Positions 38,288-42,076 of a stretch of DNA of 55,949 nucleotides are shown here, in pieces (within the stretch, counting starts at the first letter, position 1; the number at the start of each line of letters is the position of its first letter). Under the pieces are notes generated by a model, which had not been told where the DNA came from, did not search any database, and was given only the letters and a program-made list of their open reading frames with translations. Source of the DNA: a virus (Duplodnaviria; Heunggongvirae; Uroviricota; Caudoviricetes); IMG/VR virus record IMGVR_UViG_3300045988_152564. One strand, given 5' to 3'. Position numbers and translations under genes: made by a program.

Positions 38288-38797
38288 ATGGGGCACAATA
38301 ACACTAAGGGAAACCGTAAATTTATTAAGGGCCGCTATACTGCCAACGCGGCCAAAGGCGAACGACTGGTATCTTCTGAATTCCAGCTCACTTTTGCAGG
38401 CCATGAAGATATCAGCGTACTGGTTCGCACGTCGCAAATCCCTGAAATGACACGCGAGGATGTGGAGGACTATGGTCCGAATGGTGTGAAGTTCAACCAG
38501 CACGGACCAATTCGAAACTCTGGGGAAATCCAGGTCCAGTGCGTGGAGACTATCGAAGGCGATATTCTTCAGTTCATCAAGGATCGCATTGCGGCGAAGG
38601 ACTATGTTGATATCACGATGGCTGCTACCCCTGAATCCAAATCTTCCGGGGTTAACGCTGTGACAAAAGCTGCTACAACAATTGAAATGTTGGACTGCAA
38701 AATCTACAGTGATGCAATCGACTTTAGTACCGAAGATGTGACTGCCGCTGTGCGCCCGTCACTTCGTATCGTCTACAACTGGATTGAGTGGGATTAA
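38288..38797 (+). CDS. late structural protein (169 aa)
   Basis: Last gene of the operon, followed by a strong terminator. Confidence 0.45.
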   Translation: MGHNNTKGNRKFIKGRYTANAAKGERLVSSEFQLTFAGHEDISVLVRTSQIPEMTREDVEDYGPNGVKFNQHGPIRNSGEIQVQCVETIEGDILQFIKDRIAAKDYVDITMAATPESKSSGVNAVTKAATTIEMLDCKIYSDAIDFSTEDVTAAVRPSLRIVYNWIEWD

Positions 38798-38816
38798 GAG
38801 TCATCCCTTGTATTTT

Positions 38817-38841
38817 AAAGCTCCTTCGGGAGCTTTTTTTA
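38817..38841 (+). terminator. rho-independent terminator (AGCTCC-TTCG-GGAGCT + T7)
   Basis: Perfect 6-bp GC-rich stem, UUCG loop, T-run. Confidence 0.75.
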
Positions 38842-38959
38842 TAACTATTTTATATAAGAATGCATCGATAACATTGTCTTGAGTTTTATGTTAGATTATT
38901 AATGTTCTAATAAACTACAATTATTGAGGTAGATGTTTGTGCCTGTACTGTTAAAGGGG

Positions 38960-39565
38960 GACTCTAAAATGGCTGTGATTCCAATGTCGTACTCCCCGGG
39001 TACTGTCGCTCGTCGATTTTCGATCCTGGACGGAGTTACCATCCAGGGTGTGCTTTACCAGGTTATATGGGATTCCAAAACCCCATTTGCAGCTGTAATA
39101 GAGGCTGCGCCTTCTGTTATCGATGGTGATATGCGCCATAAGGTTGTCGCTACTCTTGAACTTCAACGTCGCCCGCAGCTTGAAGGCGTACTGGTAAGGA
39201 AGTTCTGGGAGGATAGCGATGTTGCCCAGATTGAAGGTATCGTGGTTGATGGAACCGTCCGGGATGTCGGTTTAGCTACTTTTGTTTACGAAACCGTAGC
39301 CTCAAAAGCTGGTGTTGTTTTGCTCAGTGATAATGAGCAATACGAAGGTGGAAAAGCTCTTTGGCAACACATCGCCCGTCGCTCTTCCGAGCTAAAAGTG
39401 TTTATCCTCGACACCGATGCCGCTCAGTATTACCCGTTTGACGGCGAACGTGTTTGCTATGACGGGGTAAGTATTCCTGAATCCGAGATATGGAGTGAAC
39501 ACCCAGATCGAAGTAAGCATGGGGTTGTTCTGGTCGCTGAATCCATAATTGGAAAGGCGGCATAG
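38960..39565 (+). CDS. orphan hypothetical protein (201 aa from ATG at 38960 with AAGGGGGA RBS)
   Basis: Stand-alone gene with its own AT-rich upstream region, between the tail-operon terminator and the IS element. Confidence 0.5.
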   Translation, partial: DSKMAVIPMSYSPGTVARRFSILDGVTIQGVLYQVIWDSKTPFAAVIEAAPSVIDGDMRHKVVATLELQRRPQLEGVLVRKFWEDSDVAQIEGIVVDGTVRDVGLATFVYETVASKAGVVLLSDNEQYEGGKALWQHIARRSSELKVFILDTDAAQYYPFDGERVCYDGVSIPESEIWSEHPDRSKHGVVLVAESIIGKAA

Positions 39566-39859
39566 CAGTAAAAAATTCCTTGCTCCTAAAAAGGGGAGAG
39601 GGCTAATCTACGTATGCTAAGCATAGATATGGCCTCAGATTAATGTTAAGCGTCTTGCAGGACGCGTAATGTTATCTGGGGCTTTCTTCTATCTGCTTGT
39701 CGGGTAATGCCTGAAGCAGATAGCCTCAAGCACCCGCAGCGATTGTATCAATGTCTGGCTTTTTTTCTATAGAAATCACCTGGAAGGGTGAATACCCACA
39801 TCAGAAGAAACGTTGCAGCAAACATGATCCCTAATGGCCAGACCGCGCCAAAGAAAATC

Positions 39860-41175
39860 CATAGTGACTGCTCCCCGCCCTGTCGGGCGAGGCTTCCCAC
39901 TTCTTAAGCCGCAACCGTCTGTGTGACGGATTTACGCTGGCCTCCATGGGCAGAAACGACGAGTCCCGCCGCTTGTAATTCCAGTATGCCCTTGCGTTTG
40001 ATGTTGAGCGCCGCATTGATATCGCGGTCATGTTCAACTCCACACTCTGGACACTGCCAGAAGCGCTTATGTAATGGCATCTCCGACATTTTGTGACCGC
40101 AGCAGTGGCAGGTTTTCGAACTGGCGAACCATTGATCCAGTTTCACCAGATGCACACCTTTCTCTGTTGCTTTGTATTCCAGTTTTGTGATGAATCCAGA
40201 CCATCCAGCATCGCCTATCGCACGAGCCAGATGGTGATTTTTCATCATATTTGCCGTTTTCAATGTCTCGACAATTACCGCTTGGTTTTCGTCAACAATT
40301 GCGCGAGATAACTTGTGCTGGAAATCGGCACGGGCACTGGCTACCCGTTCGTGAACGGCTGCAAGTTGTATTCTGGCTTTGCGCCTGTTTGCGCTCCCTT
40401 TTTTCTTACGGGACAGTGCTTTCTGCTTCCGGCGCAGGTTGCGACTTGCATTGATTAGGTGGCGGGGACTGGCAATTTTATTGCCGTCCGATTTGATGAC
40501 AAAATGCGCCAGCCCCATATCCAGCCCTGTCACATTTGATATCAGTGCGGGCTTTGCCGGCGCTTCCATCCCGTCGTCACAGAGTAACGACGCGTAGTAT
40601 TTCCCGGTTGCGCTGCGGCTCAACGTGATACTTTTCAGCATTCCCGTAATTTCACGATGTAAACGCGCTTCAATCGGCAAGATTTTCGGTATTTTTATCG
40701 CACCATCAAGGACTTTTATGCCAACACAATGATAGCTAGATTGTCTGCCGTGTTTACTTTTAAAGGTAGGTTTACCTGCTTTCAGTTTCGGATTGAAAAA
40801 GTTAGAAAAAGCCACGTCGAGGTTAATTACCGCCTGCTGCAACGCAATAGAATCATATTCTTTAAGCCATCCATACCGGCGGGATTTCTTCGCCACTGCA
40901 AGCAGTGGTTTGAGGTCTTTACGCGGGTTTAAATTTACGCGGTGCCGCTGGTAAGAATGTTTCTTGATATGCAGAGCTTTGTTGTACACAAAACGCACTG
41001 CACCGAACTGGGCGTTGATAAATTCAGCCTGTTCTGGTGTCGGATAGATGCGTACTTTTGTTGCTCTTAACATAGTCACCGCTCATTGGTACAGGTTTTT
41101 ATACTAACACCGTAATAATATTTTTAAAGCCCTTCGGGCTTTTCCGCCTTTCCTCCCCGCCCGCATTGGGCGAGG
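39860..41175 (-). mobile_element. IS200/IS605-family element carrying tnpB only (boundaries approximate)
   Basis: TnpB ORF flanked by related imperfect palindromes ctccccgccc...gggcgagg at ~39871-39898 and ~41143-41170; no tnpA. Confidence 0.5.
39904..41079 (-). CDS. tnpB: TnpB (OrfB) RuvC-like RNA-guided nuclease family protein (391 aa)
   Basis: RuvC-like GLDMG, C-terminal zinc ribbon CHCCGHKM...CPECG, DRDINAALNI. Confidence 0.85.
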   Translation of the reverse strand: MTMLRATKVRIYPTPEQAEFINAQFGAVRFVYNKALHIKKHSYQRHRVNLNPRKDLKPLLAVAKKSRRYGWLKEYDSIALQQAVINLDVAFSNFFNPKLKAGKPTFKSKHGRQSSYHCVGIKVLDGAIKIPKILPIEARLHREITGMLKSITLSRSATGKYYASLLCDDGMEAPAKPALISNVTGLDMGLAHFVIKSDGNKIASPRHLINASRNLRRKQKALSRKKKGSANRRKARIQLAAVHERVASARADFQHKLSRAIVDENQAVIVETLKTANMMKNHHLARAIGDAGWSGFITKLEYKATEKGVHLVKLDQWFASSKTCHCCGHKMSEMPLHKRFWQCPECGVEHDRDINAALNIKRKGILELQAAGLVVSAHGGQRKSVTQTVAA

Positions 41176-41230
41176 GTTCTCGGCGGTTTTTCGCTGAAAA
41201 CGCCAGGTAACTCCAGATTAGAGCAATCTA

Positions 41231-42076
41231 TCACCCTCTGAATCCTGCCGGTATACCCCATTGTTCGTTATCTTTATTTTTGGCTAAAACCGCATTAAGA
41301 GCTTCGTTTACCGTCATGCAATGCGGCAGATTATCGAAGTTTGATACCCCGCCAATATCAGGAGAACGCTTGTTCTTCAGGTAAGCATATTTCCGCGCTG
41401 CCGCCTCTACTTTCTGCTTGAACTCATGTTTTTGTGCGCGTTTTTTGGATAACCGCAGATTGTCAGCCTTTGCTTTTGCCTCAGCGATCCATGAAGTCAA
41501 TTTTTTGAGTCTGGTCGTTCCGGCACCGCCGGAAACTGATCTTTTTGTTTTTTTAACTTGTGACTTCTTATTCTTTATTGCCACGTCATCCTGACAGGGG
41601 GAGGGGGTATCATTTTGACATGGGGGTGTGGATAAAAAATTAAATAAAGCCAATGTCTTAGCGAGAACAGCTTTAACCTTGGTTGCCGCTGAAGAGATCT
41701 TTAATTTGCTTTCAATCAGCGCATTTTTGGCTTGTTGTGCGAAGGCCAAAAAGGATGGCGTAAACCGGTACAGGTTAGCGCGACGTTCACGGTGATCGCC
41801 GATAACAATCTCTACAGACAGAATTCCTTTGTTTACAGCTTCACGGAATGCACGAACGACGGTTGATTGGCTATAACCAGTTTCTGCCGCGATCAGGCGG
41901 TGAGGCTTGTGAATGAAGTATTCACTGGTTGTTGCCGCGAGATTTGCACATTGCGACAGGATATGCCCGGCGCTACGGGATAGACCGGAGTGTGTTACAA
42001 AGCAGGCCAATTCATAGCCAGAAAAAGTAAAATCGCTCATCGTTATACAGCTCAGGAAAGTGACTTTAGCCAGCAT
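41231..42076 (-). CDS. repL: lytic replication protein RepL-like (281 aa)
   Basis: Directly downstream of kilA in the same orientation; length matches remembered P1 RepL. Confidence 0.65.
   Translation of the reverse strand: MLAKVTFLSCITMSDFTFSGYELACFVTHSGLSRSAGHILSQCANLAATTSEYFIHKPHRLIAAETGYSQSTVVRAFREAVNKGILSVEIVIGDHRERRANLYRFTPSFLAFAQQAKNALIESKLKISSAATKVKAVLAKTLALFNFLSTPPCQNDTPSPCQDDVAIKNKKSQVKKTKRSVSGGAGTTRLKKLTSWIAEAKAKADNLRLSKKRAQKHEFKQKVEAAARKYAYLKNKRSPDIGGVSNFDNLPHCMTVNEALNAVLAKNKDNEQWGIPAGFRG

What the first reader, a model, noticed from the sequence alone, without database searches (positions are those of the whole stretch)
38842..39565. Orphan 201-aa gene with its own AT-rich promoter region between the tail-operon terminator and the IS
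After the strong terminator at 38817-38841 comes a ~120-bp AT-rich stretch and then a stand-alone ORF with a good RBS whose product I cannot assign to any family. It is convergent with tnpB and not coupled to any operon. This is the classic layout of a moron or cargo gene, which in phages frequently encodes defence or anti-defence functions.
Basis: seen in the sequence. Interest (0 to 1): 0.5.

Follow-up and report, generated by a model that had tools for sequence, protein, structure and literature searches.

The report
Full-length PmgF: stand-alone GNAT-fold gene
The orphan gene is real and under strong purifying selection; it encodes a divergent acetyltransferase-fold (GNAT) protein, of which phage P1's "PmgF" is a truncated relic, and it travels as a self-contained cassette between phage-plasmids, plasmids and genomic islands, sometimes beside anti-restriction genes, but its target is unknown.

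Summary
An intrinsic terminator (38817-38843) ends the P1-type tail operon (22-21-pmgG-bplB). A 27-29% GC leader follows, then a stand-alone + strand ORF ending at 39565, convergent with tnpB. The length is not 201 aa. It is 198 aa from ATG 38969, or more likely 208 aa from GTG 38939, because the extension MPVLLKGDSKM is conserved in homologues.

Residues 4-66 are 43% identical to P1 PmgF, which sits at the same locus. P1's pmgF is therefore a truncated relic. The locus is the known variable region rlfA-rlfB-pmgF.

Homologues (72-78% identity) lie between ddrA and ddrB in the Dar anti-restriction operon of other P1-like elements. One lies with a ddrA-like gene next to an antirestriction gene in a conjugative plasmid's leading region. 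Others sit beside integrases.

Best reading: an accessory acetyl-CoA-dependent protein acetyltransferase, probably counter-defence. No target, expression or activity has been shown. This is an uncharacterised family of a known superfamily, of moderate interest.

The parts
38817..38843 (+). Intrinsic terminator closing the tail operon (22-21-pmgG-bplB). It is the left homology boundary of the variable locus.
   Evidence: 8-bp G+C stem, TTCG loop and T7 tail. Identity to P1 and to MH422554 ends at 38839.
38840..38938 (+). AT-rich leader belonging to the cassette. It is absent from P1 and from MH422554.
   Evidence: GC 0.27-0.29. No homology in L002 or L003. Only about the last 55 nt before ATG 38969 (from ~38914) are shared with non-P1 contexts.
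38901..38917 (+). Candidate P1 C1-repressor operator, AATGTTCTAATAAACTA, overlapping the -10-like box. Weak and unproven.
   Evidence: 13 of 17 matches to ATTGCTCTAATAAATTT. Nine better operators lie elsewhere in the window. 3% of dinucleotide shuffles of the leader match as well.
38916..38921 (+). -10-like hexamer TACAAT with no convincing -35.
   Evidence: Reads TATAAT in L041-type loci and TACTAT in L049, L052 and L055 at the aligned position. Not called by the consensus scan.
38926..38929 (+). Shine-Dalgarno GAGG serving GTG 38939.
   Evidence: Read from the sequence. Conserved as GAGG or AAGG in homologous loci.
38939..39565 (+). CDS for a GNAT-fold protein, 208 aa from GTG 38939. Alternative starts are ATG 38969 (198 aa, as annotated in RCS47) and ATG 38933 (210 aa).
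39561..39863 (-). Remnant of a hok/sok type I toxin-antitoxin locus. The leader and sok region are kept and the hok ORF is missing. It abuts the stop codon of the CDS.
   Evidence: Rfam RF01794 at 89.7 bits. 98.5% identical to MH422554 over 39601-39863. No Hok homologue near it.
39864..41193 (-). tnpB-only IS200/IS605-type element (tnpB 39904-41079). A secondary insertion, not part of the cassette.
   Evidence: Present only in the window, RCS47 (L001) and L040 among loci carrying the ORF. Hairpin ends read.

Best explanation
The ORF is a functional accessory gene. It encodes a roughly 208-aa, highly divergent member of the GNAT (acyl-CoA N-acyltransferase) superfamily, and it is the full-length form of the protein that survives in phage P1 only as the N-terminal stump called PmgF.

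It is its own transcription unit. The tail-operon transcript stops at the terminator at 38817-38843, and the gene brings its own AT-rich leader.

The protein most likely binds acetyl-CoA through the conserved beta4-alpha3 loop (R98-x-x-G101-x-A103, numbered on the 198-aa form). It most likely transfers the acetyl group to an amine, probably a lysine of another protein. The invariant Ser120-Asp121 at the end of beta5 would act as proton relay and general base, as the equivalent S809-D810 pair does in ESCO1.

Biologically it is most likely a dispensable effector for counter-defence or host modification, used when the element enters or takes over a cell. It is not a virion part.

Status of each step:
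- Shown: the gene is real and under selection, the fold, the motif conservation, the relation to PmgF, cassette mobility, and co-location of homologues with Dar and antirestriction genes.
- Inferred: catalysis, a protein substrate, the anti-defence role, and the timing of expression.
For: Real gene:
- dN/dS 0.03-0.06.
- 124 PLSDB plasmids carry it at >=95% protein identity.

Fold:
- AlphaFold2 with a 60-sequence alignment gives pLDDT 91.1 and pTM 0.87.
- Foldseek PDB and BFVD hits point the same way, including viral proteins labelled 'NAT_SF domain containing protein'.
- Weak Pfam Acetyltransf_1 hits occur in 7 of 60 family members, best E 6e-4.
- NCBI names one 88%-identical cluster 'N-acetyltransferase'.

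Motifs:
- R/Q/K98 in 47 of 60 sequences, G101 in 51 of 60, A/G103 in 52 of 60.
- S120 in 60 of 60, D121 in 59 of 60, W132 in 60 of 60.
- Q87, Y107, Y164 and W175 each in 59 of 60.
- In ESCO1/ESCO2, the serine at the C-terminus of the strand before alpha4 and the following aspartate are required for catalysis (PMC7300003). The ESCO1 sequence ...AFSDPTPDGKLFA... was verified.

Relation to PmgF:
- tblastn gives 43% identity over residues 4-66 to P1 PmgF, at the same position after bplB.
- phrog_7349 matches at E 5e-11.

Accessory status:
- pmgF is non-essential (PMC10695390).
- The locus is a variable region (PMC9603915).

Context:
- Loci L052-L054 and L049 read lydB-hdf-darA-ddrA-[homologue]-ddrB on one strand.
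- The ddrA identity was checked against P1 DdrA, E 9e-20.
- Locus L055, an Enterobacter plasmid, reads traM..SLT..Antirestrict(PF03230)..ddrA-like..[homologue].
- Leading regions of plasmids are enriched in anti-defence genes (PMC11541004).
- GNAT domains are among the protein-modifying domains of injected 'polyvalent' proteins (PMC5512222).
Against: - No Pfam GNAT model reaches its threshold (14.2 bits against 20.7).
- NCBIfam, PADLOC and PDB sequence searches give nothing significant.
- The Ser-Asp equivalence to ESCO1 rests on topology and motif spacing only. hhalign gives E 0.097 and aligns only the motif A stretch. No coordinate superposition was possible.
- In this window the gene is not in the dar operon, which lies outside the window.
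- The Dar and leading-region contexts share one ddrA+homologue module, so they are not independent evidence.
- Other homologues sit beside integrases, next to a toxin domain (Ntox44), or alone among housekeeping genes. Those contexts fit lysogenic-conversion or defence cargo equally well.
- No promoter was found by the scan, and there are no expression data.
Confidence: 0.45

Rival explanations
1. It is a lysogenic-conversion 'moron'. It is expressed from the resident phage-plasmid and protects the host, by superinfection exclusion or anti-phage defence, for example by acetylating an incoming phage protein.
For: - It is a stand-alone unit behind a terminator.
- Close homologues sit next to integrases at prophage or island ends (L047, L061, L063).
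- Homologues occur in islands carrying AlpA and DUF3987 primase-type genes, always convergent with a conserved unknown 534-568-aa gene.
- One homologue is beside an Ntox44 toxin gene.
Against: - No PADLOC hit for it or for the 545-aa neighbour.
- Family members also occur on virus-like metagenomic contigs dense with small genes (L010-L013) and in the jumbo phage RsoM2USA.
- Homologues lie inside the Dar anti-restriction operon and in a plasmid leading region.
- A C1-operator-like site over the -10 box would, if real, silence it in the lysogen.
Confidence: 0.2
2. It is a catalytically inactive or non-enzymatic GNAT-like scaffold that helps virion or Dar-protein assembly. This is the 'putative morphogenetic function' implied by the name PmgF. 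It might itself be packaged and injected.
For: - It lies directly after the tail tube/baseplate genes here.
- It lies between ddrA and ddrB, both head-packaged proteins in P1 (PMC9024508), in L049 and L052-L054.
- It is a divergent GNAT with low Z and no Pfam hit.
Against: - It is separated from bplB by a strong terminator, and no P1 late-promoter -22 box lies upstream.
- P1 works with only a 98-aa stump, which is non-essential.
- The name pmgF does not occur in the main text of the P1 virion proteome paper.
- Homologues occur on a conjugative plasmid and in chromosomal sites with no virion genes.
- Invariant polar residues (S120, D121, Q87, Y107) and the CoA-loop motif argue for an active site.
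Confidence: 0.13
3. It acetylates a small molecule (an antibiotic, polyamine, toxic metabolite or signal) and benefits the host as metabolic or resistance cargo.
For: - Chromosomal singletons occur among housekeeping genes in Pantoea, Dickeya and others.
- P1-like variable regions are discussed as hot spots for mobilising resistance genes (PMC9603915).
Against: - No NCBIfam hit at E<=1. By my own knowledge that library includes the curated resistance-enzyme models.
- The top structural neighbours are protein acetyltransferases (ESCO1, HAT1, NatD).
- The association with ddrA and antirestriction genes is not explained.
Confidence: 0.12
4. It is a GNAT toxin of a type II toxin-antitoxin module (AtaT/TacT/KacT-like) that acetylates aminoacyl-tRNA, serving plasmid addiction or abortive infection.
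For: - It sits in a plasmid-maintenance neighbourhood and next to an addiction-module remnant (hok/sok).
Against: - No antitoxin-sized ORF lies upstream or downstream in an operon. The 129-nt leader holds no ORF, and what follows is the hok leader on the other strand.
- The gene is solo in most contexts.
- At 198-208 aa, with a different N-terminal half, it is longer than those toxins (size of those toxins from my own knowledge).
Confidence: 0.05

Closest known systems
Phage P1 PmgF (98 aa, 'putative morphogenetic function'; phrog_7349)
   Same: - It occupies the same locus and orientation, immediately after bplB and its terminator.
- Residues 4-66 are 43% identical.
- It is non-essential (PMC10695390).
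   Different: - P1 PmgF stops being homologous after about residue 66. It lacks the whole GNAT core (beta4-alpha3-beta5-alpha4, the CoA loop, and S120/D121/W132).
- The window's protein is the complete form, and P1's looks like a relic left when the rlfB-rlfA allele took over the locus.
GNAT superfamily protein acetyltransferases, closest in structure ESCO1/Eco1 (PDB 4mxe) and HAT1
   Same: - R/Q-x-x-G-x-G/A loop.
- A Ser-Asp pair at the end of the strand before alpha4, followed by G-K-x-(L)-aromatic. In ESCO1 this reads FSDPTPDGKLFA and here it reads LSDNEQYEGGKALW.
   Different: - No significant sequence similarity (hhalign E 0.097; no PDB sequence hit).
- No zinc finger.
- A different, beta-rich N-terminal half.
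- Bacterial and phage origin, with an unknown substrate.
AcrVA5, a GNAT-type anti-CRISPR that acetylates Cas12a
   Same: It is a small, stand-alone acetyltransferase carried by a mobile element that disables a host immune nuclease by lysine acetylation (abstracts listed). This is the mechanism I consider most likely here.
   Different: - No sequence relation was tested or found.
- AcrVA5 is much smaller (from my own knowledge).
- The target here is unknown, and the gene is not linked to acr or aca loci.
Rac of phiKMV-like phages (predicted GNAT acting on the RNA polymerase alpha subunit)
   Same: It is a phage-encoded solo GNAT that targets a host protein during takeover (PMC7552054, listed).
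   Different: - It belongs to a different phage group and a different family.
- Here the gene sits on a temperate phage-plasmid, and expression in early infection is not shown.
P1 Dar anti-restriction system (hdf-darA-ddrA-ddrB; darB-ulx)
   Same: - Homologues at 72-78% identity sit between ddrA and ddrB on the same strand in other P1-like elements.
- They also travel with a ddrA-like gene onto a conjugative plasmid.
   Different: - In this window the gene is about 25 kb from the dar operon, judged from RCS47 coordinates.
- Canonical P1 Dar works without it.
- Even inside the dar operon it keeps its own terminator-plus-leader cassette.
- Packaging has not been tested.

Membership tests
GNAT (acyl-CoA N-acyltransferase) superfamily | Core fold: mixed beta-sheet with beta4-alpha3-beta5-alpha4-beta6-beta7 | tested here: met
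   [not shown]
GNAT (acyl-CoA N-acyltransferase) superfamily | Pyrophosphate-binding loop Q/R-x-x-G-x-G/A between beta4 and alpha3 | tested here: met
   The window has R98-D-V-G101-L-A103. Across 60 family members, R/Q/K occurs in 47, G in 51 and A/G in 52.
GNAT (acyl-CoA N-acyltransferase) superfamily | Sequence match to a curated GNAT model above its threshold | tested here: not met
   Pfam Acetyltransf_1 scores 14.2 bits against a cut-off of 20.7, E 0.053. The best family member reaches E 6e-4. NCBIfam gives 0 hits.
GNAT (acyl-CoA N-acyltransferase) superfamily | Binds acyl-CoA and transfers the acyl group | not testable with these tools
   This needs biochemistry.
PHROG 7522 (phage proteins of unknown function) | Full-length profile match | tested here: met
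   E 9.9e-140, residues 1-198 on profile positions 13-210 of 210.
P1 PmgF (phrog_7349) | Homology and the same genomic position after bplB | tested here: met
   phrog_7349 E 5.2e-11 over residues 3-66. tblastn gives 43% identity to P1 pmgF. The positions match.
P1 PmgF (phrog_7349) | Equivalent full-length protein | tested here: not met
   P1 PmgF is 98 aa and aligns only to residues 1-66. The GNAT core is absent from it.
Moron / autonomous cargo cassette | Own transcription signals, and present or absent among close relatives | tested here: inconclusive
   An upstream terminator and an AT-rich leader occur in all contexts, and three alleles exist at the locus. No promoter passes the scan, no downstream terminator was identified, and there are no expression data.
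Type II GNAT toxin-antitoxin (AtaT/TacT/KacT) | Adjacent co-transcribed antitoxin gene | tested here: not met
   No ORF lies in the leader or directly downstream on the + strand. The gene is solo in most other contexts.
Dar anti-restriction system of P1 | Encoded within the darA or darB operon | tested here: not met
   In the window it follows bplB, and no dar gene lies in the window. The feature is met only by homologues in L049 and L052-L054.
Dar anti-restriction system of P1 | Packaged in the head and protects incoming DNA from type I restriction | not testable with these tools
   This needs virion proteomics and plating tests.
Known anti-phage defence systems (PADLOC) | Match to a defence-protein model | tested here: not met
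   0 families at E<=1.

The most novel reading that the evidence does not exclude
The family is a previously unrecognised class of lysine acetyltransferases carried by mobile elements. It would use an Eco1/ESCO-like Ser-Asp catalytic pair, be made as the DNA enters a new cell, and switch off a host immune protein by acetylation. The target could be a type I restriction enzyme, in concert with DdrA, or an SMC-type plasmid or phage sensor. Phage P1's 'pmgF' would then be the fossil of an anti-defence gene.
Probability: 0.15. Interest if true: 0.75.

Novelty: new member of a known kind. Interest (0 to 1): 0.42.

Why it matters
- It gives a long-standing 'hypothetical' or 'putative morphogenetic' gene of the P1 group a concrete fold and a testable chemistry.
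- It shows that the reference phage P1 carries only a truncated relic. That explains why pmgF never showed a phenotype.
- The cassette turns up in places where mobile elements keep their counter-defence tools: the Dar operon and a plasmid leading region, in both cases with a ddrA-like gene.
- If it really acetylates a host immune protein, it would add an enzymatic anti-restriction or anti-defence mechanism to phage-plasmids that spread ESBL genes, as RCS47 and SJ46-type elements do.
- If it does not, it remains one more divergent GNAT of unknown substrate.

Tried and rejected
Searches that gave nothing useful:
- Pfam, NCBIfam, PADLOC and PDB sequence searches with the single protein and with the family profile gave nothing significant.
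- Single-sequence AlphaFold gave a poor model (pLDDT 53). It was replaced by the alignment-based model.
- The AFDB50 fold library was not available.
- The search for related loci with the family alignment failed because no stretch was conserved enough.
- A second deep search with the profile returned only 'hypothetical protein' names.
- tblastn with a distant member found only the jumbo phage RsoM2USA among cultured phages.

Ideas tested and dropped:
- P1 late (Lpa-dependent) promoter: no AAGTTACTT-type -22 box upstream, so it is not a late gene by that test.
- Sigma-70 promoter: none passes the scan on the + strand.
- C1 operator: only a 13/17 match, with shuffle frequency 0.03. I kept it as a lead, not a finding.
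- The weak Rfam hits in the leader (SAM-III 22.7 bits, STnc130 32.7 bits) are below threshold and taken as chance or as the terminator itself.
- Toxin-antitoxin reading: rejected for lack of a partner gene.
- A paralogue or dar genes in the window: none.
- The 534-568-aa neighbour found in genomic islands has no Pfam or PADLOC match and is absent from the window.
- ESCO1 relation at sequence level: not significant.

Full report
**What the window is**

The region around the finding is a P1-type phage-plasmid. The stretch 38288-41300 is 98.6% identical to Escherichia phage RCS47. The gene order is 23, 22 (sheath), 21, pmgG, bplB, then the ORF, a tnpB, and repL-kilA-ant-icd-c4 on the other strand.

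**Checking the observation**

- Terminator: a 20-nt stem-loop AAAGCTCC-TTCG-GGAGCTTT at 38817-38836 is followed by seven T.
- AT-rich stretch: GC falls to 0.27-0.29 in the 100-nt windows covering 38800-38949, against 0.42-0.56 on both sides.
- ORF: a + strand ORF runs to the TAG at 39563-39565 and is convergent with tnpB at 39904-41079.
- Length: no start codon gives 201 aa. ATG 38969 gives 198 aa (the RCS47 annotation), GTG 38939 gives 208 aa and ATG 38933 gives 210 aa.
- Start codon: I favour GTG 38939.
  - The ten residues it adds, MPVLLKGDSK, recur as MPVLL[KR]GDS[KN] in six homologous loci. The changes are synonymous or conservative (CTG/TTA, TTA/CTC, GAC/GAT, TCT/TCA). In three of those loci the peptide opens with ATG.
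  - Distant family members keep a P-x-[LMV]...G motif there.
  - GTG 38939 has a GAGG box 9 nt upstream.
  - One island lineage (L004-type) has a stop codon in the extension and must start at the downstream ATG, so both forms exist in nature.
- Reality of the gene:
  - dN/dS is 0.056 against the SJ46 allele (dS 0.24) and 0.03-0.04 against island alleles (dS about 2).
  - PHROG 7522 matches at E 1e-139.
  - 265 clusters at 50% identity match at E<=1e-3.

**The locus and its alleles**

Homology to canonical P1 and to the P1-like MH422554 ends at 38839, just after the terminator stem.
- P1 then carries pmgF, rlfB and rlfA, and homology resumes at 41217 before repL.
- MH422554 carries a complete hok/sok locus (Hok = MKQQKAMLIALIVICLTVIVTALV...), and homology resumes at 39601-39863.

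The 761 bp at 38840-39600, leader plus ORF, is therefore one allele of a multi-allelic site. The literature already lists rlfA-rlfB-pmgF as one of eight variable regions of P1-like phage-plasmids (PMC9603915). It also records substitutions between repL and bplB (PMC6906374).

Among 38 IMG/VR loci encoding the protein, the 28 P1-like ones all show bplB-terminator-leader-ORF followed by the hok-leader remnant, in nine of them cut short after 100-125 nt (in eight by ~1.8 kb of other sequence, in one by the end of the held locus). Only the window, RCS47 and one other carry the tnpB element. The IS is therefore a late, secondary insertion and has nothing to do with the gene. In PLSDB, 124 plasmids carry the full-length protein at >=95% identity.

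**What the protein is**

Sequence libraries are silent on function:
- Pfam gives a sub-threshold Acetyltransf_1 hit (14.2 bits).
- NCBIfam, PADLOC and PDB sequence searches give nothing.

The predicted secondary structure has the GNAT core: beta4 at 84-93, alpha3 at 102-114, beta5 at 116-119, alpha4 at 126-138, beta6 at 142-148 and beta7 at 186-192. The N-terminal half is unusual, being beta-rich.

Conservation maps as follows:
- the CoA pyrophosphate loop, R/Q/K98-x-x-G101-x-A/G103;
- Q87 and Y107;
- an invariant S120-D121 right after beta5, followed by Q124, Y/F125, G128 and W132;
- a C-terminal Y164-D-G-x-N-I-x-D-x-x-I-W175 block.

In ESCO1/ESCO2, the serine at the C-terminus of the strand before alpha4 and the next aspartate (S809/D810) sit at the CoA pocket and are required for catalysis (PMC7300003). 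The ESCO1 sequence there reads FSDPTPDGKLFA (verified), against LSDNEQYEGGKALW here. This is a topological and motif resemblance only. Profile-to-sequence comparison is not significant and aligns only the motif A stretch (E 0.097), and I could not superpose coordinates.

**Relation to P1 PmgF**

tblastn against phage genomes found P1, P7 and relatives matching residues 4-66 at 41-45% identity. The match falls exactly on pmgF, the 98-aa gene that follows bplB in P1. After residue 66 the P1 protein diverges and ends. P1's pmgF is therefore a stump lacking the whole catalytic core.

That fits its lack of phenotype. It is non-essential in a genome-wide CRISPRi screen, whereas bplB, pmgG, 21 and 22 are essential (PMC10695390). 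The name also does not occur in the main text of the paper reporting the P1 virion proteome (PMC9024508). The label 'putative morphogenetic function' is positional and does not refute an accessory role.

**Where relatives live**

| Loci | Identity to window protein | Context |
|---|---|---|
| L052-L054 (contigs of ~14-90 kb), L049 | 72-78% | lydB-hdf-darA-ddrA-[homologue]-ddrB(ParB domain)-...-repL, one strand. The ddrA-position protein is 40% identical to P1 DdrA (E 9e-20). |
| L055, Enterobacter conjugative plasmid | 77% | traM, SLT, DUF5983, Antirestrict (PF03230), 151-aa ORF, ddrA-like gene (82% identical to L049's), then the homologue |
| L004-L009, L041-L048, islands with AlpA and DUF3987 primase genes | 87-89% | At the edge of the island or next to its integrase, always convergent with an unknown 534-568-aa gene |
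| L061, L063 | 31% and 70% | Next to an integrase, one beside an Ntox44 toxin gene |
| L056, L059, L064, L065 | 40-70% | Solitary chromosomal genes |
| L010-L013, virus-like metagenomic contigs dense with small genes; jumbo phage RsoM2USA | about 27-30% | Distant members of the family |

Two further points bear on these contexts.
- Canonical P1 has ddrA directly followed by ddrB.
- L055 lies in the leading region, a zone reported to be enriched for anti-defence genes (PMC11541004).

In four of the five contexts compared (P1-like, dar-operon and plasmid) the gene keeps a terminator-like hairpin and an AT-rich spacer in front of it; the island locus L041 shares only the spacer, -10-like box and RBS. 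So it moves as a cassette.

**Regulation**

Little can be claimed.
- The consensus scan finds no + strand sigma-70 promoter in the leader.
- A -10-like TACAAT at 38916-38921 is conserved as TATAAT or TACTAT in other contexts. It lies so close to GAGG/GTG that a transcript starting there might serve only ATG 38969.
- No P1 late-promoter -22 box is present.
- A 17-mer at 38901-38917 matches the C1 operator consensus at 13 of 17 positions. The consensus was checked on two annotated P1 operators. Nine operators with <=3 mismatches lie elsewhere in the window, and 3% of shuffled leaders match as well as this one. This is a lead suggesting repression in the lysogen, not a finding.
- Downstream, the hok-less hok/sok remnant keeps a promoter-like site and its SD-AUG, pointing into the 3' end of the gene. 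Antisense transcription is possible but untested.

**Conclusion**

The gene is an autonomous, mobile accessory cassette encoding a divergent GNAT-fold protein, and it is the intact version of P1 PmgF.

I consider an acetyl-CoA-dependent protein acetyltransferase with a counter-defence or host-modifying role the best-supported mechanism, at about 0.45 for the whole statement and about 0.9 for the fold alone. The rivals are:
- a lysogen-protecting moron (0.2);
- a non-catalytic assembly or packaged factor (0.13);
- a small-molecule acetyltransferase (0.12);
- a toxin-antitoxin toxin (0.05).

It is a new, uncharacterised family inside a very well known superfamily. Interest is moderate until a target is found.

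Noticed in passing
window 39561-39863 (- strand): Hok-less hok/sok remnant. The Rfam sok model matches at 89.7 bits, and 39601-39863 is 98.5% identical to the complete hok/sok of MH422554. The Hok ORF is missing. The retained SD-AUG (39563-39561) now opens a 53-aa ORF antisense to the 3' end of the GNAT-like gene. A promoter-like site (TAGAAA-16-TACAAT with a TG) lies at 39769-39742.
   Followed up: partly
window 39864-41193: tnpB-only IS200/IS605-type element with similar hairpins near both ends (CCCCGCCC...GGGCGAGG). It replaces 143 nt present in IS-free relatives such as L014. It is found in only 3 of about 30 related loci.
   Followed up: partly
window 38901-38917 (+); also 6925, 9017, 9066, 12690, 23110, 23121, 26643, 42976, 44647: Nine sites match the P1 C1-repressor operator consensus with <=3 mismatches, against 0.2 expected by chance. 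A weaker 13/17 site overlaps the -10-like box of the gene under study.
   Followed up: partly
L004:6684-8321, L041:6690-8396, L047:6680-8284 (- strand in each locus): An unknown 534-568-aa protein (60-70% identical among the three) is always convergent with the GNAT-like homologue in integrase, AlpA and DUF3987 islands. It has no Pfam or PADLOC match. It may be a linked partner or a separate cargo gene.
   Followed up: partly
L052:6772-10903 and L049:3354-6477: In these P1-like elements the place of P1's single 995-aa ddrB is taken by separate genes on the same strand: a 448-aa DdrB-ParB protein followed by a 559-563-aa protein of unknown function and, in L052, a 331-aa protein.
   Followed up: no
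window + 33408 and + 54735: Sites resembling P1 late promoters: a -22 box AAGTGACTT or AAGTTACTT, followed four bases later by TAAAAT or TACAAT. They were seen while checking that the ORF has none.
   Followed up: no
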